From Raja brachyura (lineage: Eukaryota), in assembly GCA_963514005.1 (NCBI GenBank), contig OY740808.1, forward strand, positions 17,856,001 through 17,920,000: DNA of 64,000 nucleotides. The letters run 5' to 3'. The stretch's first letter is position 1. The number at the start of each line of letters is the position of its first letter. The position numbers and the translations under genes were made by a program. Positions 16,609 through 33,599 of the stretch are shown piece after piece. The notes beneath the pieces are model-generated. The model saw only the letters and a list, made by a program, of their open reading frames with translations, did no database searches and was not told the DNA's origin.

Positions 16609-16745
16609 ATTATGCCCTGGGGAAAGACTGCATCATGCATGGTTATATGCTGAAATTAGGAAACCCTTTCCTGACACAGTGGCAACGTCGTTATTTCTAT
16701 CTTTTCCCAAATCGGCTGGAATGGAGAGGAGAAGGCGAGTCACGG
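16609..16745 (+). CDS. GRK3: GRK3 coding exon (exon 19 equivalent), N-terminal half of the PH domain
   Basis: gcag/gtaag flanks, 137 nt, [46 protein letters not shown] (MLKL and GESR are GRK3-type); ends in phase 0. Confidence 0.97.
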
Positions 16746-18445: not shown

Positions 18446-20937
18446 TGTATCTTTACTTCAGCTCCCCGTGGGCCTCCACCAGCAACTCCACAGATCATCC
18501 CTCCCCTCCGCCCACCAGCGGGCCGGAGCCATAGCCTCACCTGAATTCCAGGCTCTGCACCGGGCTCACAGCCTCCATGCTGCAGACTCCAACACCACGT
18601 GGTCTGACTCTCCAGGGTCCAACTGCTCCCCCCCCCCCTCCCCCACAGGGCACCAGAGTCATGATGGACCTTCCCCTTTCCCCCCCTTTTAACCAGGTTA
18701 CCCCGACCACACCCACCCATACAATAGTCCTCATGCCCCCCTCCTTTCTGAACACCCACCATCCCCCCACCAGAACTCGCCTCAACCTCTCTCCACTCCC
18801 CAGCCCTTCTCCCCAGCCAACCCCCACCCTTGTCATGTCTTCACTATCCCCCCCTGACCACCCCCTTTCCGATACGGAATGGTCTGTCCTCAACAGAGGC
18901 CTCATCTTCGTTCCCCTCCGCCCCCATCTCAACGAGTCCCGTGTCCACCACGACATAGAGCCTTTCTTCTGTTGCTTCCGCCTCCGTGCCTTTTTCTATG
19001 AGAAGGAATCCACACCACCCAGTGATGACCCTTTCTCCCGTCACTACTGGTCCCCCTCCTCTTGGACTTCCCCAAACGGCTTTCTACCCTCTCTAGACCT
19101 TTTTATTTCTAACTACCGGCGTCACATCAATCGTCTCAACTTTCCCACTCCCCTTACTTACTCTGACCACACCCCCTCTGAACGTACAGCCCTCTGCTCA
19201 CTCTGCAACAACCCGGACATTATAATCAAACCCGCCGACAAGGGAGGTGCCGTGGAAGTCTGGCAAGCCAGCTCTTGTACACCTCCTCCTACCTATCCTT
19301 GGACCATGATCTCACAGATGAGCACCAGGCCATAATCTGACAGACCATTTATGATGTCATCACTTCTGGCTGTATGCCATCCAACCTTATCGTTTCCCAG
19401 CCCCGCACATCCCAGTTTTATCTTCTCCCCAAAATCCATAAATACAACTGCCCTGGCAAACCCATTGTTTCTGCCTGCTCCTGTCCCACTGAAATTATTT
19501 CCATGTACCTCGACTCCATCCTATTCCCCCGGTCCAATCTCTCCCGACCTATGTCCAAGATACCTCACATGTTCTTCGTCTCTTTAATGACGTTCACTTT
19601 TTGAGCCCCACACTACTTCATCTTTACTATGGACGTACAGTCACTCGACACCTCCATCCCCCACCAGGAAGGCCTTGAAGCCCTGCATTTCTTCCTCAAC
19701 GGCAGAACCATCCAATTTCCCTCTACTAACGCTCTACTCTGCCTAGTGGAGCTGGTCCTCACCCTTAACTTCTCCTTCGGCTCCTACCACATCCTCCAAG
19801 AAACTTCCTGCAAAGACTATCCCCTACTCCCAATTCCTCCATCTACACCGCATCTGCGCCCAAGATGAGGCGTTCCATACCAGGACATCCGAGATATCCT
19901 CATTCTTTAGGGAACGGGGGTACCCCTCTCCCATCACAGATGTCCTCACTCGTGTCTCCTCGGTACCCCGCAGCTCCGCCTTGGCTCCCCCTTCCCCCTA
20001 GATGCAACAGAGACAGTCACCCTAGTCCTTACCTTTCACACCATTAGTTGTTACATACAACACATAATCCTCCAGAATTTTTGTCGCCTCCAACGGGATC
20101 CCAACACTAGTCACATCTTCCCATCTCCACCCCGTCTGCAGAGACCATTCCTTCTGCAACTCCCTGGTTAACTCATCCCTTCCCACTCAAACCACCCCCT
20201 CCCCAGGTTACCTTCCCCTGCAACCGCAGAAGATGCAACACCTGTCCCTGTACATCCTCCCTCGACTTCGACAGTCCTTTCAGGTTAAGCAGAGATTCAC
20301 TTGCACCTTCTCCAACCTCATCTACCTTATCCGTTGTTCAAAATGTTGACTCTTATACATTGGCGAGACCAAACTTAACTGGGCGATCGTTTCGGTGAAC
20401 ACCTTCACTCAGTCCACCTGAACCTACCTGATCTCCCCGTTGCTAAACACTTTAATTCTCCTTCCCATTCCCACACAGACCTTTGTGTTCTAGGTCTCCT
20501 CCATTGTCGGAGTGAGGCTAAATGCAAATTGGAAGAACAGCATCTCATATTTCACTTGGGCAGCTTACAGCCCAGTGGAATGAATATTGATTTCTCTAAC
20601 TTCAGGGAGCCCGGGCATTCCCTCTCTCTCTATCTCTCCCCCACCCTAGTCGCACCAGGTTCTCGTTTTCAACAACAAAGAGCTAACAATGGCCTGTTTC
20701 CTTTATCATCGTAACTTTTTGCATATCTTTCATTCATTGTTCTTTATCACTCTACTTCCCAACATCTCCCATCGTCTATATCTCTCGTTTCCCTTATCCC
20801 TAACCAGTCTGAAGAAGTGTCTCAATACCGAAACACCATTCCTTCTCTCCAGAGATACTGCCTGTCCCGCTGAGTTACTCTAGCTTTTTGTGTCTATCTT
20901 TAGTTTAAACCAGCATCTGCAGTTTACTTCCTACACA
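18446..20937 (+). mobile_element. Penelope-like element (RT plus GIY-YIG), frameshifted and internally deleted
   Basis: [67 protein letters not shown]; degenerate CTGAAGA..GAAAC near 20809. Confidence 0.92.
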
Positions 20938-21599: not shown

Positions 21600-24500
21600 C
21601 ACTCATGTTATGAGTCATACTTTGTAGTTACGCCCAGGCTGGTGTTCAGCTCTCTCCTGCTGAATCTATTCAAGACCCTGACTGCCTACTGCACAAATTC
21701 CGACAGTTATGTGAGTTACGTACCAATTTAGTTATTGAACGGCATCTGTTTTTATCACGGTGTCAGAGACAGGGAGAACCTGTGGACTTGTACGTCAGTG
21801 CACTGAAGCACATCGCAAATCAGTGCAATTTCAGAGATATATGTGATAGCCTCATCCATGACCGTTTGGTTCATGGCATCCGCAATGATAAATTACACGA
21901 CGAGCTACTGCGGGATGCTGACCTTACTCTAGAGACTGCTGAAAACCGCTGTCGCATTGCTGAAATGGCTGATGCTCACATCAACGTTTTTGGACACTCT
22001 ACTGCTCGTGAAATTAATGTTGCTGGTATGTCTCATCAAATCTCTCCTCGTTTTCCTCAAGTGCCTGATGCCAAGTTGAGACTGATTGACAATTGCTTTA
22101 ACTGTGGGGGTTCACATGCTGCTGTTCGTGACCGTTGCCCTGCGCATGGAAAATTATGTCGATTTTGCAACAAAAGAAACAATTTCCTTAAGTGCTGTCG
22201 TTCACGTAACAGAGTTCATACAAGACAATATGTTAATTCGCTTGGCCGTGAAAGCTCTTTCTCAGAATTCTCTCAACCAGCTCCCATGGATTTACAGGCA
22301 GCAGGCGAAGTTGATGTCGATATACATGCTTTGTCTGATTTAATGCATAAACAACTAGACCCCAAGATCGCTTTACTCATTAATGGCAAAACTCTTTATC
22401 TGAAAGTAGATTCAGGGGGCCGCTGCAACTTCATTTGCCTGGCTGTATTCCAAAAGTTACGAAAAATAGAGATTGTTTCTCCAACGGCTGCCTCCCTTGT
22501 TCCATTTGCAGGAGGTTGAGTGCACCCTATCGGTCAAGAAACTTACAAAATTCTTAAAGGGTTGGACAGGCTAGATGCAGGAAGATTGTTCCCGATGTTG
22601 GGGAGGTCCAGGACAAGGGGTCACAGCTTAAGGATAAGGGGGAAATCCATTAGGACTGAGATGAGAAGGAATTTTTTCACACATAGAGTGGTGGGTCTCT
22701 GGAACTCTCTGCCACAGAGGGTAGTTGAGGCCAGTTCATTGGCTATATTTAAGAGGGAGTTAGATGTGGCCCTTGTGGCTAAGGGGATCAGAGGGTATGG
22801 AGAGAAGGCAGGTACGGGATACTGAGTTGGATGATCAGCCATGATCATATTGAATGGCGGTGCAGGCTCGAAGGGCCGAATGGCCTACTCCTGCACCTAA
22901 TTTCTATGTTTCTATGTTTCTAAATTGAGTTGCGCTGCTGTCTTAACTCGCGTGTCCACAACCTGGATTTCTATGTGCTTCGTGAAAATGTGCTGTCTCT
23001 GCTGGGTGTCAACGCATGTCAAGACATGGGTCTGATTGCTTTTAGCCAATATGTTTGTCATCTGACTACAGACTGTGACTTTAACCATCAAATCCTGACA
23101 CAATACAAAGTTTTGGTTGACAATAGGCTGGGCAGGTTGCCTGTCAGGTATACGATTACCATTGATCCTGAGGTAATTCCAGTTGTTTGTCCAGCTTTTA
23201 AGATTCCCCACGCTATGCGGGACCGTGTTCAAGGTGAACTTAACAGAATGGTGTCTCTAGGTGTGATTGCTCCCGTCGCTGACCCCTCGGATTGGTTCTC
23301 CACTATGGTTGTGGCTTCCAAGAAGAATAAAGACGAGATACAGATTTGCATCAACCCAAAGGACTTACAGCAATTAAACGACCCCACTATCCCATGTGCA
23401 CTGTGGATGAGATTGCTGCGCAGATGGCTGAGGCAACTGTATTCACGGTGCTAGATGCCAAGAGTTCATTCTGGCAGATTTCGCTGGAACACAACTCCTC
23501 CAAGTTAACCACTTTCAGCACTCCGTTCGGGCGTTACAGATTTCTTCGCATGCCCTTTGGAATAAGTTCTGCTAGTGAAGTATTTCAACAAGCTATGGAG
23601 CAGATGTTTGCAGGCTTCCAATGCTCTCATCATAGTGGATGACATCCTAGTTGCAGGACGAACGGTCAAAGAACACGATGCCAATCTGACGAAGGTCTTG
23701 GATCGTGCCAAGGCCATCAATCTCAAGCTGAACCCAAGATCTCAAGATGACTTTATCGTAATGGCCATGTCGTTTAATCCCTCATCCTGTATGGAGGATT
23801 TGGTTGCCCACACTGTTGCTGACAGTACTCTACGGTCGCTTACCTCCGTCATTAAGCACGGCAGGCCGGACAAACACGACAACGTTCTGCTGCCAGTCCG
23901 GCCTTTCTTTGCCGTCCTTGATGAGCTAGTGCTGCAGGATGGCATTGTCTTAAAAGGACACAAGGCTGTGGTCCCTGCTTCGCTGCACAGCAAGTATTTT
24001 AACGCTGTCCATGCAGGACACCCAGGCGCTGAAGCTACTGTCCTACGGGCAAGAAGCATGTTTTACTGGCCTGGTATGGCCGACTACATCACCAAGAATG
24101 TGGCATCCTGTGCAGTGTGCAACAGCTTGGCACCTCACCAACAAAAGCAACCACTTCTTTCACATCCGGTTCCTGCACTCCTGTGGTCTACAGTGGCAGC
24201 TGACATATTTGAGCGGCATGGCAAGGATGGTTTTGACATTGATCTTCACAGCAGCCCCACTTATCGCGGGGAGGTTTTGAAGTTATCTTGCCATTTTTCA
24301 GTCCAAGGATCTCTGGGTAGACTGTTAACTGACAACGGCAGTCAATTCAATACAGAGCTAATTCCGACGTGGCACGGTGCCTGTGGCAGATCAGGCATTG
24401 ATCACACACGTGGTTCTACCTGAGGAGGTTCAGTCCAGGTTACAACCAAAGCGTGACTCTCAAAAACAATGGTTTGATAAAACAAGTAGGCCAGTGCCAC

Positions 24501-24690: not shown

Positions 24691-26493
24691 AAGTATATAT
24701 GTCTTTACACTTCAGTTAGGATGTGTCTTTCCACTTCAGAGTTCATTGTGCTACTACCATCAGCAGTTGTATCATCAATGAGCCAGTACCTTCAATGTGC
24801 ACTTTAACCACATGTGATTTTTTTCTATTACAAATCTCAAATTGTGGAGTACAGAGGCAAATAAATAAATGATGGGTCTTTGTCCAAAACATTATGGAGG
24901 GCACTGTAATTAAAGGGGAATGAATGGGCCTATGAGAGAGATGAAGCTGCAGGATCACAGGGCATAGAGACAGGTGATTGGAACTGATGAGATTGCTCTT
25001 CTGGGAGCCTTAATGGAACCAAGAGACCGAATGGCCTGCTCCTGACTTGTAATCTGTTGCAAATACAATTCTTGATCTTTTTGAACAATGTATTTAACTG
25101 CTTCAATGACAGTGTGTCTATTTTGTCTATATTAAGTTGCCAATATTAAGTTGTTAGGGCATATCACAGATTCCTAGCATGGCACTTTCTCAAGCATTTA
25201 GTGAGGCAGAATCTACCTTAACTGTTAATGATATGTTTATACTGATAATCTTTAGCTTTAACCTAGTAATAGATTGTATTGTAAAAGAGGATTCGGGTAA
25301 ACATTTGCTTCTCTACCTAATGCCTACTTTTGAAGTTGTGCATGATCTTGCCCTATTTACGTAATATGAGTACCTTTGCATTGCTTGGTGACTCTGGCTT
25401 TGATTGGGAGCTCACAAGAGCAATTGGCTGGTAATAGAAATATCCCTTGGTACACTAAGGACTCTTCTGTAAATGGGCTGTAGGAAAGTATCCTTATTCG
25501 GCAATCAAGATAATTCTGTACCAGATTTAGAGTTGCTCAGTCAAGCTATGGAATGAGTTTTTGTCTGCGGTTAATGTATTCAGTCGTTAGGTAATGCAGA
25601 AAGATCTTTACTCTGCATCCAACTTGTGTTGTACCTGATCTATCCAGGTCAACAATGAAAAGGTAAAACCATGAAAACATTTTCTGGAATAATAGGAAGC
25701 AAAGTGAAAACTGAAATTAATAATCAGTCAGTGCAGTCAAACAGCAATGTGTTTGTGGAACATGATATTTAACCCAGCCTTGCAGATGCATCATGTCAGT
25801 AACAGCTGTCTAGCATGCACGTGCAATAAACGGCATAATTATAAACCTATTTAACACTGTCTCATATACACAGATTTGGGTGCATAATAACAGGCAGATG
25901 TTGGGTTCCGTTGAATATAATCCATTGATGTGCATTGTGCAGTAAAACATCTATCTATCTTCCTTTTGTTTTAAATTAGTCGCAGCACATAAAACTGCTA
26001 TTTATCCACAACAGGTCTTTGATTTTGCATTTTCTTTATGCATTTTTACAGAAAATGTTTTGCTTTCTTGGTGTTGAGAGATGTTATTTATTTATTCCTG
26101 TCTTCTTATTTTTTTATGCATTTTAAATGTAAAGGTCAGGCACAATACAAGTTAAAATACAGAGTAATGATGCTGATACACATTCTGTGAGTTGATCAAT
26201 CCCTACAAGATACCATGTTATTTTGCATATTTTGTATTGATAAATTTCAAGTAAAGGTTCCATTCTCCTGAAAGAAAACATAATATCATCCCTAAGGTGA
26301 TATATCTTAATCTTTTTGACCTGTTTGATAATATCAATGTCAGCCTTCACATGTTAGATCATGCACATTCACGCAGTGGTGTTTCATTGCCATGGCAATA
26401 AACTACTCTAGGAAGGTTGACTATTTTTGATGTGCACTCTCAGATCTATGTGATGCCATTTTAAATATTAAATAAACATTTTAATTTTAACAG

Positions 26494-26505
26494 AGCTTCA
26501 TTACA
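26494..26505 (+). CDS. Candidate 12-nt GRK3 alternative microexon (SFIT)
   Basis: ttttaattttaacAG|AGCTTCATTACA|GTGAGT; phase 0-0, matching the host intron. Prediction only. Confidence 0.45.
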
Positions 26506-26581
26506 GTGAGTAGATCAGTGCAACGCCCTATAAAATGAGATCTAATCAAACAAAGGATTTGTCGTGTTATTTTCCATTTAG

Positions 26582-26614
26582 GATGCCTGGATTATTTATA
26601 AAAGGCGTAGGCTG
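26582..26614 (+). CDS. Candidate 33-nt GRK3 alternative exon (DAWIIYKRRRL)
   Basis: CTAAT branch-like motif at 26542, acceptor gttattttccatttAG, open phase-0 frame, donor CTG|GTAAGA. Prediction only. Confidence 0.55.
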
Positions 26615-26775
26615 GTAAGAATACTGCTATCAAACTATAGCATCGACCCAGTCTCCCATGCTATAGTTGAAACTTTGGGTGTATTGTGGGGTCGTCATGA
26701 TTAGTTTTATTAACATATAACTATTTTCGTTTTCATTTTACATTGTCTTTCTGTCTCTCATTCTTTCCCCTTCAG

Positions 26776-26787
26776 CTAGCAGCTTAG
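26776..26787 (+). CDS. Candidate alternative terminal exon of GRK3 (LAA-stop)
   Basis: ~50-nt pyrimidine-rich tract ending ttccccttcAG, then CTA GCA GCT TAG; AATAAA at 27351 and 27628. Confidence 0.45.
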   Translation, partial: LAA

Positions 26788-28547
26788 CTATCGCAAACTT
26801 AATTATTCAAGAAGAGAAATGCTTTTAAATGTTGCATTTTATTTTTAGTTTCTTTAACATTCTCTCATCCCTCTTTTAAGAAGCAAGGAGAACAAATTGG
26901 GCATTTTCATTGATTTATTTTCTCCTTTGGTGGTCATCCTGTTTAACATATTCAGCCTTGCTGGAAGATTAGCCAAAAAACAATGAAATTCAATCAATTT
27001 AAGCCGTTTAAATGCTTATGTATCAGGCCACATGAAGCAGGGTCATACTAGCACAATCTATCTTAATTGACAGCCTTCCTGTGTGAATCGTTTTGATAGC
27101 CCACCCTGGGTTTGTATGGTTGTCCCTTGTGACAATGTATGTGCTTATACTCGAGCATTTCTGTAATGGTTATTTTTGTGAGGTATTGTTTTCTGATCCA
27201 ATTTGGAAAGTACAACCTCAAAACCACTATTACATAAAAAAAATTAAAGTAGTTGCAGGTGGTCAGTACCAACATGGAATATGTTTGCAAATTGGACCAG
27301 CTAGTTATGAGCAACGTCTGGGATTCTGACATGATAGCTTGGCTCTTGAGAATAAAACTACATTGCACCATCCATTTTCATTTGTATTCAGATCTATCTT
27401 TATTCTTCATTCTTTTCTGCCAATTTTCCTCTGCTTCATCCTCTCCTGATGATCTTGGCAGCTTGCTGGAGAAGTCATGATAATTGCTGACACAACTTCT
27501 GGTAATCTCCAATATTTTTGAAAATTGCAAACAAACATTTCCATTTTGGCCACAACTATTTAAAAATGCCCACAACATCCAGAAATCCCTGTGTCTATCA
27601 ATTCACCATCAACAGAGACCACAAAACAATAAATAATAAGATCAGATGTGTTCCTTCAAAGAAGCCAGGTTTGCTACACTCTGAGCTCAAGTACAGGCCA
27701 TTGAATTCTGTGCAGAGCAAGGTTGCCATTTCTTTTAATTCCTGCTCACTTGCACCTAGAATTTTACCGTATCAATATAAGTAGTGATTGAAATGAATTG
27801 TAGAAGGATGGAGTGTGACATTAAATTCTTTGAAGGATGATGAGAGAAATGATCTGAAAATGCAAGACTAAATTGTAATGGTGCATTGTACATGATCTGT
27901 TGAAAAGCTGACCTGCATAGAATTGAATTCTAAGCCTATCATTGTCTTGCCAAGATGTGGTTTTTTTTCACAGTATATGGATAGAGATTTTGTTTTAAAT
28001 TGAAATGGTTTTCCATGGATTGTGTTTTTGTATTCAGATGCTGAAATTGTTTAAAAGGCATAGTGAATTAAAACAACAGTGGGTTTGATTAGCATTCTAA
28101 AACAATGAGTCTGAATGAGTTCCAAGGTTTTTATCATCAAACTATCACTGGATCTCCAATTTAATTAATTCACACAATATTTTCATGGCTCTTCCTTGAA
28201 ACCAATGTCTTAATTTTTTTTCATTTCTTTGAATTCCTTATTAAGCTTAGAAACGTTCATTAAAAAAAATGTTTTATTGATTTTTAGAGGCAAGATGTTG
28301 ATGTTTTCAGAAATACATCAGAGTAGAAAATCAGTCAAATCGTTATTGCCAAAGCCCTAACAAGAGAATGTGTCCAATTCTAAACATAGCATTTAAACAA
28401 GTATGTTGAGACATTAGAAAGTTCGGAGGAATTATGCCAGGGAATCAGGGAGCTATGTAGAGGTTAAAGGGAGATTGATGAGAAGTTTTCCAAAAATTCT
28501 CAAGAATTTTGATTGAAAGAAGAAATGTTTCCACTAGTTTGGGAATA

Positions 28548-29203
28548 CAATCACAATCACAATAATACTTTATTAGCCAAGTATGTTTTGCAACATATGA
28601 GGAATTTCATTTGCCAAGTCAGTCATACAAATATAAAGCAATGGAACACCCTAAATACATTTTACCATAAACATCCACCACAGTGACTCCTCATTCCTCA
28701 CTGTGATGGAAGGCGAAAAAAAAAGTTCAGATCTCTTCCCTTCTTTGCTGTCCCACGGTCAGGGATGATCTTGACTCCGCGCGGCGATCGAACACCGCAT
28801 CGGGACTGGTCGAGCCTCTGCTTCGTTGGAGCTCTCGACTAGCCTCTCCAGAGACTGCAAGCTCACACTGGTAAAGTTTGCAAGCCGCAGTTGGAGCGAT
28901 CCCAGGCAAGCGATCAACTCCGATGTTCAGTCCCTGCCCAGCGGTGGGGCTCAAAGTCAGTCCGAGGATGCCTCCGGCTCCATTGATGGTAGGCCACAGA
29001 GCCATCGAGATGCGATCCGGAAAAAAATCGCATCTCTGGCATGGTAAGAAACTGAAAAAAAGTTTCCCCCGACCCCCCTCCCCCTCCCCCTCCCCCTCCC
29101 TAAAATAAACATTTACACAAACTTTTAAAACACACAAAAAAAAAGACGAAAACACAGACAGACTGTTGGGTGGGCTGCCAATCGTGCGGTGCCCCTGGTG
29201 GTA
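28548..29203 (-). mobile_element. Non-autonomous retroposon-like element related to 6913-7883
   Basis: (ATTGTG)n tail and AATAAA on the minus strand; shared GCCTTCCA.CACAGTGAG...TCACTGTGGTGGATG hairpin. Confidence 0.7.
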
Positions 29204-29452: not shown

Positions 29453-30809
29453 CTAGACTAAGTGGGACCCGTTGGGTCCCAGCTTCACAAGGGAGGGCTG
29501 GTCCCCCGACGCAATATTCCACCTCTCCACCAATTCCAATATTGGTGGCCAGTGGGGGGGGGGGGGGGTGGCTTTCTGGAGCACTAGTATGGGTGTTGTG
29601 GGCTGAAGGCACTGGTTTCTAGAGGGCTAGTATGGACATTGTTGGCCGAATGGATTCTTGGGCTGGCGGCTCAGTCACTCAAGCCTGTTGTGCTGGCAGC
29701 TCACTCATGGCTGGTGGGCTGGCAGTTGACTCACGGCTATTCCTTGAAATTCCAGTTCAAGCAGGGTGCAAGGCCACGAAATTCAAGTGCAGTTTCTTAC
29801 CACTTCAAGCAGGGTGCAAGGCCACCAAATTCAAGTGCAGTTTCATACCATTTTAAGCAGAGTCCAAGGCCACTAAAGACAGCGAGTCGTGACGTCTCCC
29901 TCCTCCATCTTGCAGAGACTGAGCCACGCCCACACTTCTGGGTTTTAAAGTCCCACCCCCCTCCCACCAGAAGGGTCGTGGCCTTCATGGCGTGATTGAC
30001 ATTTTTAAAACACTAATACCTCTTTTATTTTTCATCGATGGGAAAAATCCTCAGCACCTTACGAGCGGAGGGGGACTCTAAGTAAGATGGCCAAAAATCA
30101 CAGCCGCACGTGGTAGCGTTTTTTCTAAAATCAATATAAAGCGCAAACAGGATGTGGTCAAGATTAGACCTTTAATTATACAGAAGGCAAGGCAACTTTA
30201 ATTAGGCAAGGCAACTTTAATTAGGCAAGGCAACTTTAATTAGGCAAGGCAACTTTAATTAAGCAAGGCAACTTTAATTAGGCAAGGCAACTTTAATTAG
30301 GCAACACAGCTTTAGCATTTCCAAACCAAAGGCAACACAGCTTTAGCATTTCCATACCAAAGGCAACACAGCTTTAGCATTTCCAAACCAAAGGCAACAC
30401 AGCTTTAGCATTTCCAAACTATATTTTCAAACCACATTAAGGGCACTGACAGGTCAGTAAAACCACTCACAGTTTAGTAGACATGTGTTCAGTGTTATTC
30501 ACAGTGCAGACTGAGTGACGTGACCCTCTCGCTCCCCCATCTTGCAGAGACTGACTGAGGCACTCAACACTTCTGGGTTTTATAGTCCCTCCAGAAGGGG
30601 TGTGGCCTTCTGGAGCGAGAATCTCAACATTTTTTAAACACTAATAACTCTTATTTTTAATCGATGGGAAAAATCCTCTTGTCCTGCACAGCGGAAGGGG
30701 ACTCTGAGTAAGATGGCCAAAAATCACAGTCGTAAGTGGCAGCGTTTTTTCTAAAATCAATATACAGAACACCAGGAAGTGGTCAAGATCAGACTATTAG
30801 TAATATAGA
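29453..30809 (-). mobile_element. Non-autonomous Helitron
   Basis: Minus strand A|TC 5' end at 30809 and CTAG|T 3' end at 29453; GGGACCC-nnn-GGGTCCC hairpin 11 nt from the 3' end; no TSD. Confidence 0.9.
30186..30420 (+). repeat. Two adjacent minisatellites inside the Helitron
   Basis: About 6 copies of GGCAAGGCAACTTTAATTA (19 bp), then 4 copies of GGCAACACAGCTTTAGCATTTCCAAACCAAA (31 bp). Confidence 0.93.
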
Positions 30810-33485: not shown

Positions 33486-33599
33486 CAAAGCCTGCTGACA
33501 ATGGAGCAGATAGTTTCAGTGGAAGAGACTCAGATTAAAGATAAAAAATGTATCCTGTTGCGGTTTAAGGGAGGAAAGCAATTTGTATTGCAGTGTGAG
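33486..33599 (+). CDS. GRK3: GRK3 coding exon (exon 20 equivalent), PH domain
   Basis: gtag/gtaag flanks, 114 nt, [38 protein letters not shown]. Confidence 0.96.

What the first reader, a model, noticed from the sequence alone, without database searches (positions are those of the whole stretch)
26461..26800. Three-exon module in the GRK3 PH-domain intron that could swap the C-terminus
Seen: within ~300 nt of a TE-poor part of the 16.7-kb phase-0 intron lie three exon-like units, each with good splice signals and each in phase 0. They are 26494-26505 (12 nt, SFIT, donor GTGAGT), 26582-26614 (33 nt, DAWIIYKRRRL, donor GTAAGA, CTAAT branch-like site) and an acceptor at 26775 after a ~50-nt pyrimidine tract, followed by CTA GCA GCT TAG. 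The intervening introns are 76 and 161 nt, and AATAAA occurs at 27351 and 27628. Spliced to exon 19 they read ...GEGESR-SFIT-DAWIIYKRRRL-LAA*. Known: GRK2/3 reach membranes through PH-domain binding to G-beta-gamma and PIP2, whereas GRK5/6 use short basic/hydrophobic C-terminal segments. Inference: an isoform that drops the G-beta-gamma-binding half of the PH domain for a WIIYKRRRLL anchor, or cassette inclusion of 4, 11 or 15 aa within the PH domain. I do not know of such an isoform being described.
Basis: partly seen in the sequence, partly recalled or inferred. Interest (0 to 1): 0.85.

Follow-up and report, generated by a model that had tools for sequence, protein, structure and literature searches.

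The report
Ancient GRK3 PH-loop cassette microexon
One of the three proposed mini-exons is real: an optional 33-base exon of the receptor kinase GRK3, kept from rays to mammals, that adds a short positively charged patch to the membrane-binding domain and likely strengthens or retunes how the kinase docks on membranes; the proposed swap of the protein's tail has no support.

Summary
The coordinates are right, but only the middle unit is supported. 26582-26614 (33 nt, DAWIIYKRRRL) is a conserved cassette exon between GRK3 exons 19 and 20. The same insert, followed by exon 20, is in 50 of 252 retrieved proteins. These cover 30 named species: rays, gar, bichir, teleosts, amphibians, turtles, lizards, a marsupial and six placentals. 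Trp3 is kept in 29 of 30 and the net charge is always positive. In an amniote genomic contig (L003) the 36-nt orthologue, with its acceptor and donor, is the only significant match between the two introns. The insert lies in PH loop 3 and the modelled PH fold stays whole. The likely role is a splicing-controlled basic/aromatic lipid patch. The 12-nt SFIT unit, the LAA* last exon and the AATAAA signals are at chance level or unconserved, so the C-terminal swap is unsupported. No RNA run was available. The exon is in automated annotations, but ten literature searches found no paper on it.

The parts
16609..16745 (+). GRK3 exon 19 (PH strands 1-3, ends ...WRGEGESR, residue 597), phase-0 donor. 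The exon number is counted back from a 21-exon gene (recalled).
   Evidence: matches residues 553-597 of GRK3 chain 9ijj_4Z
24910..28550 (.). Single-copy, repeat-free island around the cassette exon, between high-copy repeats
   Evidence: contig depth about 6-12 inside against up to 10^5 in the flanking repeats; one 3.7-kb contig in each of 4 DNA runs
26494..26505 (+). 12-nt exon-like unit SFIT; unsupported, likely a chance or decoy site pair
   Evidence: present; 2 other sense and 2 antisense units as good; in 0 of 252 proteins; no counterpart in L003
26564..26581 (+). Conserved 3' splice site of the cassette exon (branch-like CTAAT at 26542)
   Evidence: 16 of 18 letters shared with L003 9043-9060 (alignment)
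26582..26614 (+). 33-nt frame-keeping cassette exon, DAWIIYKRRRL, inserted in PH loop 3 (beta3/beta4)
   Evidence: identical insert in P0047 (Rhinoraja isoform X1); orthologous inserts in 30 named species; genomic orthologue L003 9061-9096
26615..26620 (+). Donor GTAAGA; CTG|GTAAG is identical in L003
   Evidence: second-best donor score in the intron
26633..26668 (+). Conserved intronic inverted repeat (11-bp arms, 14-nt loop) starting 19 nt after the donor; predicted RNA hairpin with a YGCY motif in its 3' arm.
   Evidence: L003 9112-9144 has a 12-bp stem with the same 9-bp core on both arms and a different loop; 0 of 6390 control tiles share such a pair of words; folds
26730..26787 (+). Pyrimidine tract and acceptor at 26776 reading LAA*; unsupported as an exon, possibly a decoy site or a splicing-factor binding tract
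   Evidence: L003 has a strong acceptor at a similar distance (9247) but an unrelated peptide
33486..33599 (+). GRK3 exon 20 (PH strands 4-7); its acceptor scores weakly here and in L003
34646..34807 (+). GRK3 last coding exon (PH C-terminal helix and tail) to the stop codon

Best explanation
26582-26614 is an alternatively spliced, frame-keeping cassette exon of GRK3, conserved from rays to mammals, whose 11-13 residues sit in loop 3 of an otherwise whole PH domain and likely act as an added basic/aromatic lipid-binding patch. SHOWN: exon, splice sites and frame; conservation of the peptide pattern (acidic residue, x, Trp, x, x, aromatic residue, then a Lys/Arg run); annotated isoforms with and without it in the same species; its position just after G592/E593 in the beta3/beta4 loop; a conserved downstream inverted repeat. 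PREDICTED: the PH fold stays whole with the insert as a protruding low-confidence segment; the inverted repeat folds as a hairpin. INFERRED: inclusion turns an acidic-to-neutral loop (EWRGEGESR) into a strongly basic one beside the PIP2 pocket formed by loops 1 and 3. Trp/Tyr would enter the headgroup layer and Lys/Arg would bind PIP2 or phosphatidylserine. The long isoform would therefore dwell longer on anionic membranes and need less free G-beta-gamma, while keeping the G-beta-gamma contacts (P585, R587, E589 and the C-terminal helix). Inclusion is likely tissue- or stage-regulated through the hairpin/YGCY element. SFIT and LAA* are most likely not used. My odds: about 0.95 that the exon is real; about 0.55 that lipid binding is its main job.
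For: Protein level: the insert followed by exon 20 is in 50 of 252 stored proteins (two of the three searches were aimed at it, so this is not a frequency). It spans 30 named species and 22 distinct peptides; W3 in 29/30, D/E1 in 28/30, Y/F/L at position 6 or 7 in 27/30, net charge +1 to +5 in 30/30. The same 12-mer occurs in bat, buffalo, mole-rat and tenrec. Both forms are seen directly in 7 of the 30 species: Podarcis muralis, Hyperolius, Anabas, Echeneis, two Anolis and Erinaceus. DNA level: L003 against the window gives 10 blastn matches, 9 coding exons and this exon; of 8 intron pairs only this one has a significant match (E 9e-5 against 0.3 or more). Shared inverted repeat: 0 of 6390 control tiles. 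Structure: in the second AlphaFold model the PH strands and helix have block pLDDT 76-93 and the insert lies between strand 587-591 and strand 611-613; the Pfam PH score is not lowered (41.7 against 41.0, 41.6 against 39.2); the loop varies in length among distant GRK2/3 relatives. Literature: GRK2 G592/E593 lie in loop 3, linked to phosphoinositide specificity, loops 1 and 3 form one of two lipid pockets, and P585/R587/E589 contact G-beta-gamma (PMC6823287, passages with Table 2). GRK2/3 need both anionic lipid and G-beta-gamma (PMC8002388, passages). A PH-loop microexon switches lipid preference in cytohesin-1 (PMC6314551, abstract).
Against: No junction read was seen in this species; support rests on automated annotations whose reads I could not inspect. 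Peptide identity across species is only 44%, against 95% and 88% in the flanking exons, so constraint is on pattern and charge, which also fits a nuclear localisation signal or a calmodulin site. The insert is modelled at pLDDT below 50 and the whole-protein domain arrangement is wrong (rmsd about 22 A to GRK2 structures), so its position relative to the membrane or G-beta is not shown. It is not amphipathic in rays (helical moment 0.11). In the window the hairpin is marginal: z -1.06, with mean stem probability 0.01-0.91 by context, against 0.97 in L003. The core arms are identical rather than covarying and only two species were compared. No primate or mouse protein with the insert was retrieved (Pan X1/X2, Papio, Otolemur X1/X2 and Prolemur all skip it).
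Confidence: 0.55

Rival explanations
1. Same cassette exon, but its main effect is on protein partners at the beta3/beta4 hairpin: it would weaken or strengthen G-beta-gamma binding, or add a calmodulin or receptor-tail contact, rather than bind lipid.
For: The insert starts 8-10 residues after R587/E589, which contact G-beta-gamma (PMC6823287; R587Q impairs that binding, PMC13494237). A near-invariant Trp followed by basic residues, drawn as a helix in both models, resembles a calmodulin-binding segment (recalled).
Against: Length (11-13 aa) and sequence vary (44% identity) more than a tight protein interface usually allows. The helix call is low confidence.
Confidence: 0.22
2. The exon adds a monopartite nuclear localisation signal that would send a fraction of GRK3 to the nucleus, as is known for GRK5/6 (recalled).
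For: K-[KR]-x-[KR] is present in 25 of 30 species' inserts and sits on an exposed loop.
Against: 5 of 30 lack the motif, and the most conserved residues (acidic 1, Trp3, aromatic 6/7) are not needed for importin binding.
Confidence: 0.1
3. One reading: exon 19, with or without SFIT, joins the 33-nt exon and then a last exon LAA* with its own poly(A) site, replacing the second half of the PH domain by a basic/hydrophobic tail.
For: 26776 has the richest pyrimidine tract of the intron. L003 also has its strongest intronic acceptor 150 nt after the cassette donor. The exon 20 acceptor is weak in both. A basking-shark model (P0019) ends in an unrelated tail after exon 19, so truncation at this intron is annotated in one shark.
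Against: 0 of 252 proteins show it, and all 50 cassette forms run into exon 20. Peptides after the downstream acceptors are unrelated. L003 has 4 acceptors scoring 8 or more in the 617 nt after the donor, so one near 150 nt is expected. AATAAA is at chance level. Cutting after strand 3 would leave a half domain; P0019 loses the Pfam PH match.
Confidence: 0.07
4. The exon is included only at low level and the long isoform has no distinct function; it is tolerated because loop 3 is length-plastic.
For: The skipped form dominates unbiased hits: the first search listed 65 skip against 21 insert-type rows, one of them an unrelated extension. The loop varies freely in invertebrates.
Against: Frame, Trp, charge, both splice sites and a flanking hairpin are kept between a ray and an amniote while the rest of the intron is unalignable; the same 12-mer is found in four placental orders.
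Confidence: 0.06

Closest known systems
Cytohesin-1/ARNO 3-nt PH-domain microexon (2G/3G variants)
   Same: Conserved, frame-keeping microexon in a lipid-facing loop of a PH domain; it switches phosphoinositide preference and localisation (PMC6314551 abstract; PMC6823287 passages).
   Different: Loop 1 and one glycine there; loop 3 and 11-13 basic/aromatic residues here, next to a G-beta-gamma interface. No functional test exists for the GRK3 exon.
RefSeq/Ensembl-predicted long GRK3 isoforms (e.g. XP_078277585.1, XP_036209811.1, XP_021112789.1)
   Same: They are this exon: identical insert in the skate, orthologous inserts elsewhere.
   Different: Automated models only. I found no paper describing the exon, its conservation, its regulation or its function, and the flanking hairpin is not in Rfam.
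GRK4/5/6 lipid-binding domains and GRK6A/B/C, GRK4 splice variants
   Same: Short basic/hydrophobic segments bind anionic lipids (PMC8002388); splicing diversifies GRK4 and GRK6 (PMC5821040).
   Different: Those are terminal elements in kinases without a PH domain. Here the segment is internal, added to a whole PH domain, and not amphipathic in rays. The review passage lists human splice variants only for GRK4 and GRK6.
SRRM3/4-dependent neural microexons
   Same: Short, frame-keeping, conserved, in a signalling-domain surface loop (recalled features).
   Different: 33-39 nt is above the 3-27 nt class, and there is no UGC enhancer just upstream of the acceptor in either species.

Membership tests
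Conserved vertebrate cassette microexon (51 nt or less) | Length of 51 nt or less and a multiple of three, no stop in frame | tested here: met
   33 nt here, 36 nt in L003; 11-13 aa in 30 species
Conserved vertebrate cassette microexon (51 nt or less) | Splice sites conserved in an orthologous intron | tested here: met
   acceptor 16/18 and CTG|GTAAG shared with L003; one other species only
Conserved vertebrate cassette microexon (51 nt or less) | Included and skipped forms both exist | tested here: met
   both annotated in 7 species seen directly; annotations, not reads
Conserved vertebrate cassette microexon (51 nt or less) | Junction reads in this organism | not testable with these tools
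   no RNA holder listed; the runs laid were DNA-type contigs
SRRM3/4 neural microexon | Length 3-27 nt | tested here: not met
   33-39 nt
SRRM3/4 neural microexon | UGC enhancer shortly upstream of the acceptor | tested here: not met
   no TGC in the 20 nt before the exon in the window or L003; feature recalled
SRRM3/4 neural microexon | Neuron-specific inclusion | not testable with these tools
   no tissue RNA data
GRK4-subfamily C-terminal membrane anchor | Lies at the C-terminus in place of a PH domain | tested here: not met
   50 of 50 cassette proteins continue into exon 20; PH match kept
GRK4-subfamily C-terminal membrane anchor | Amphipathic helix with basic and hydrophobic faces | tested here: inconclusive
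   helical moment 0.09-0.23 in rays, gar, bichir, sea turtles and most mammals, 0.43-0.66 in teleosts and lizards; low-confidence helix in the models
GRK4-subfamily C-terminal membrane anchor | Binds anionic lipid and gives constitutive membrane residence | not testable with these tools
   needs liposome and cell assays
Alternative last exon / intronic polyadenylation (26776 unit) | Strong acceptor | tested here: met
   11.4 bits, richest pyrimidine tract in the intron
Alternative last exon / intronic polyadenylation (26776 unit) | Poly(A) signal above background, conserved product or transcript evidence | tested here: not met
   AATAAA 12 sense against 18 antisense; 0 of 252 proteins; unrelated peptide in L003

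The most novel reading that the evidence does not exclude
GRK3 has an unstudied splice switch, as old as jawed vertebrates and gated by a conserved intronic hairpin, that gives it a GRK5-like basic lipid patch on top of its PH domain. In the tissues that include the exon, GRK3 would sit on the membrane and phosphorylate receptors largely without free G-beta-gamma, blurring the textbook split between G-beta-gamma-dependent GRK2/3 and membrane-resident GRK5/6.
Probability: 0.3. Interest if true: 0.78.

Novelty: new variant of a known kind. Interest (0 to 1): 0.55.

Why it matters
GRK2/3 are defined by G-beta-gamma- and lipid-dependent recruitment through the PH domain, and the one GRK3 chain that the solved-structure search returned is the 688-aa skipped form. 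A conserved isoform with a basic patch in the lipid-specificity loop could change basal receptor desensitisation and receptor preference in a tissue-specific way, and would be a candidate explanation for G-beta-gamma-independent GRK3 activity. It is cheap to test: junction counting in public RNA-seq, then one construct pair in liposome and membrane-recruitment assays. The conserved hairpin gives a direct handle on regulation.

Tried and rejected
RNA evidence: no RNA holder listed, which is no evidence either way. The one laying used four contig sets and showed only DNA-type cover. The related organism differs at about 20 of 3688 letters, too few for a constraint test, and the places of those substitutions were not listed. 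A degenerate pattern for the tetrapod exon found nothing in metagenome contigs; the protein-based scan then gave L003, while L004 and L005 were not GRK3 loci of use. The own-genome search with exon 19 gave only this locus, so no GRK2 paralogue intron could be compared. The first AlphaFold model was unusable for the PH domain (residues 548-613 below pLDDT 50). The second has a wrong domain arrangement, so no membrane geometry was read from it. No complex prediction was run. Rfam had no match in 24900-28600. Earlier scan findings: none. Literature: ten searches; GRK3 or ADRBK2 with 'microexon' gave 0 papers. The circadian Adrbk2 cassette exon of PMC3446320 is a 102-nt exon of different sequence (supplement row). 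The cattle GRK3 event of PMC10940349 is listed as mutually exclusive exons without coordinates (supplement row), so it cannot be matched to or excluded from this exon. PMC3499511 and PMC8714921 mention GRK3 without bearing. Inserts set aside as not orthologous: Callorhinchus 8-mer (P0165), gar X4 11-mer (P0191), P0105, and the tails of P0019, P0036, P0038 and P0210. Splicing-factor motif counts (RBFOX, QKI, PTBP, MBNL, NOVA, ESRP, CELF) within 300 nt showed no clear enrichment.
Full report
OBSERVATION. The window holds the 3' half of GRK3 from a cartilaginous fish close to skates and rays: nine coding exons match P0047 (Rhinoraja GRK3 isoform X1), four of them at 98-100%. Exon 19 matches residues 553-597 of a solved GRK3 chain. 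The three units lie as described and all keep phase 0. They sit in a 3.6-kb single-copy island between high-copy repeats. With a generic splice matrix (frequencies recalled) the three are not equal. The 33-nt unit is the only stop-free AG..GT unit of 51 nt or less at its score in the 16.7-kb intron (0 antisense). SFIT-grade units occur twice more on the sense strand and twice antisense. The 26776 acceptor is one of 8 near its score, though first by pyrimidine content. AATAAA is at background, 12 sense against 18 antisense.

THE 33-NT EXON IS REAL AND ANCIENT. A search with exon 19 alone, not aimed at the insert, returned 427 proteins of which 120 were listed. Among these, DAWIIYKRRRL stands between GEGESR and exon 20 in the skate isoform, and similar peptides stand at the same junction in a stingray, teleosts, a frog, turtles, lizards and a bat. 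Two searches aimed at the junction and three cluster look-ups added gar, bichir, salamanders, a marsupial, buffalo, mole-rat, tenrec and hedgehog. Of 252 proteins then stored, 150 skip the exon, 50 carry it, 45 have something else after exon 19 (32 begin with Val, as read-through into the intron would; 13 other) and 7 lack the region. Across 30 named species the insert is 11-13 aa in 22 distinct peptides, with Trp3 in 29, Asp/Glu1 in 28, Tyr/Phe/Leu at 6 or 7 in 27, and net charge +1 to +5 in all. Mean pairwise identity is 44%, against 95% and 88% in the flanking exons. Both forms were seen directly in 7 species. These are automated RefSeq, Ensembl or GenBank models. That most rest on RNA-seq junctions is my inference from how such short exons get annotated; I saw no reads.

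GENOMIC CONFIRMATION. L003, a 12-kb contig with a compact amniote-type GRK3 (probably a bird, inferred from its short introns), has a 936-nt intron 19 with a 36-nt orthologue at 9061-9096 reading ALWTIYTKKHKL. It shares 16 of 18 acceptor letters and CTG|GTAAG. Whole-contig blastn gives 10 matches, nine coding exons and this exon; of 8 intron pairs only this one has a significant match. L003 has no frame-keeping 12-nt unit upstream: the only upstream donor above 5 bits pairs with an acceptor 26 nt away. It does have its strongest intronic acceptor 150 nt after the cassette donor (161 nt in the window). But the peptide is unrelated and 4 acceptors of 8 bits or more lie in those 617 nt, so I do not count this as conservation.

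Both introns carry an inverted repeat just after the donor: window 26633-26668 (11-bp arms, 14-nt loop) and L003 9112-9144 (12-bp arms, 9-nt loop). They share the 9-bp core on both arms and extend it differently, outward in the ray and inward in L003. None of 6390 control tiles shares a 9-mer and its reverse complement with the L003 flank; 4 of 167 intron tiles hold a perfect repeat of 9 bp or more. The L003 stem is stable (z -3.1; pairing about 0.97). The ray stem is context-dependent (z -1.1; 0.01-0.91), because its loop can pair with the donor region instead. In the longer folds of both species the donor is paired. The 3' arm holds a YGCY motif, the MBNL type (recalled), but motif counts are not enriched. 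Rfam has no match. I infer a splicing-regulatory element; with two species and an invariant core, structure and paired protein sites cannot be told apart.

WHERE THE PEPTIDE SITS. In the second AlphaFold model (59 rows, 37 of them without the insert and mostly distant relatives) the PH domain is confident (block pLDDT 76-93), with strands 561-568, 576-583, 587-591, 611-613, 617-625, 628-635, 640-644 and helix 648-671. Residues 595-608 are below 50 and drawn as a helix between strands 3 and 4. The kinase domain and domain arrangement of that model are unreliable. Distant GRK2/3 relatives vary in this loop's length. In GRK2, G592/E593 are in loop 3, tied to phosphoinositide specificity; loops 1 and 3 form one lipid pocket; and P585, R587 and E589 contact G-beta-gamma (PMC6823287, passages and Table 2). 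R587Q impairs G-beta-gamma binding (PMC13494237, passages). GRK2/3 need both anionic lipid and G-beta-gamma, whereas GRK4/5/6 use basic lipid-binding domains (PMC8002388, passages). PMC3307776 (passages) notes that this loop is mostly charged residues, with conserved glutamates, and mentions no such insert in the passages shown.

MECHANISM. Best reading (0.55): regulated inclusion adds an aromatic-then-basic patch beside the lipid pocket of a whole PH domain, raising or retuning anionic-lipid binding and lowering the need for free G-beta-gamma. None of these was tested at the bench. The absence of a swap form among the proteins is weak evidence, since only about 200 candidates were scored in each aimed search and clusters show few members, but it agrees with the DNA comparison.

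WHAT IS KNOWN. It works like the cytohesin-1 PH microexon, which switches phosphoinositide preference (PMC6314551, outline and abstract). It meets the broad microexon definition but not the SRRM3/4 class (too long, no UGC enhancer), and it is not a GRK5/6-type C-terminal anchor. A review lists human splice variants only for GRK4 and GRK6 (PMC5821040, passages). Ten searches found no description of this exon. The library lacks most subscription papers, and splicing databases or supplements I could not see may list it. The mouse circadian Adrbk2 exon is a different, 102-nt exon, and a cattle GRK3 splicing event lacks coordinates. No primate or mouse isoform with the insert was retrieved; whether it is lost there is open.

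VERDICT. Observation confirmed; interpretation partly supported. One real, deeply conserved, annotated but apparently unstudied GRK3 cassette exon with a conserved flanking hairpin; the other two units are unsupported. New variant of a known kind; interest 0.55.

Noticed in passing
window 26633-26668; L003 9112-9144: Conserved inverted repeat just after the cassette donor; in the ray its loop (26648-26654) is complementary to the exon end and donor (26609-26615), suggesting two competing folds.
   Followed up: partly
window 33486; L003 9714: The constitutive exon 20 acceptor scores weakly in both species, below several unused acceptors in the intron.
   Followed up: partly
window 27393-27461: A second long pyrimidine tract followed by a CAG inside the single-copy island; no evidence of use.
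   Followed up: no
L003 9328-9339: A 12-nt AG..GT unit (LLET) downstream of the cassette exon, unrelated to SFIT; shows that such units arise readily.
   Followed up: partly
P0019 (basking shark GRK3 isoform X2), after residue 597: An annotated form ends in an unrelated 27-aa tail after exon 19; the tail has no match in this window.
   Followed up: partly
   Followed up: no
window 29752-30419: Tandem repeats of 48, 19 and 31 nt inside intron 19, next to a 120-nt direct repeat.
   Followed up: no
window 18535-19335, 21614-22519, 23566-24423: Stop-free stretches of 266-301 codons in intron 19, likely mobile-element remnants; not examined.
   Followed up: no
PDB 9ijj_4Z: The only GRK3 chain returned is from the mouse sperm axoneme central apparatus and is the 688-aa skipped form.
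   Followed up: no
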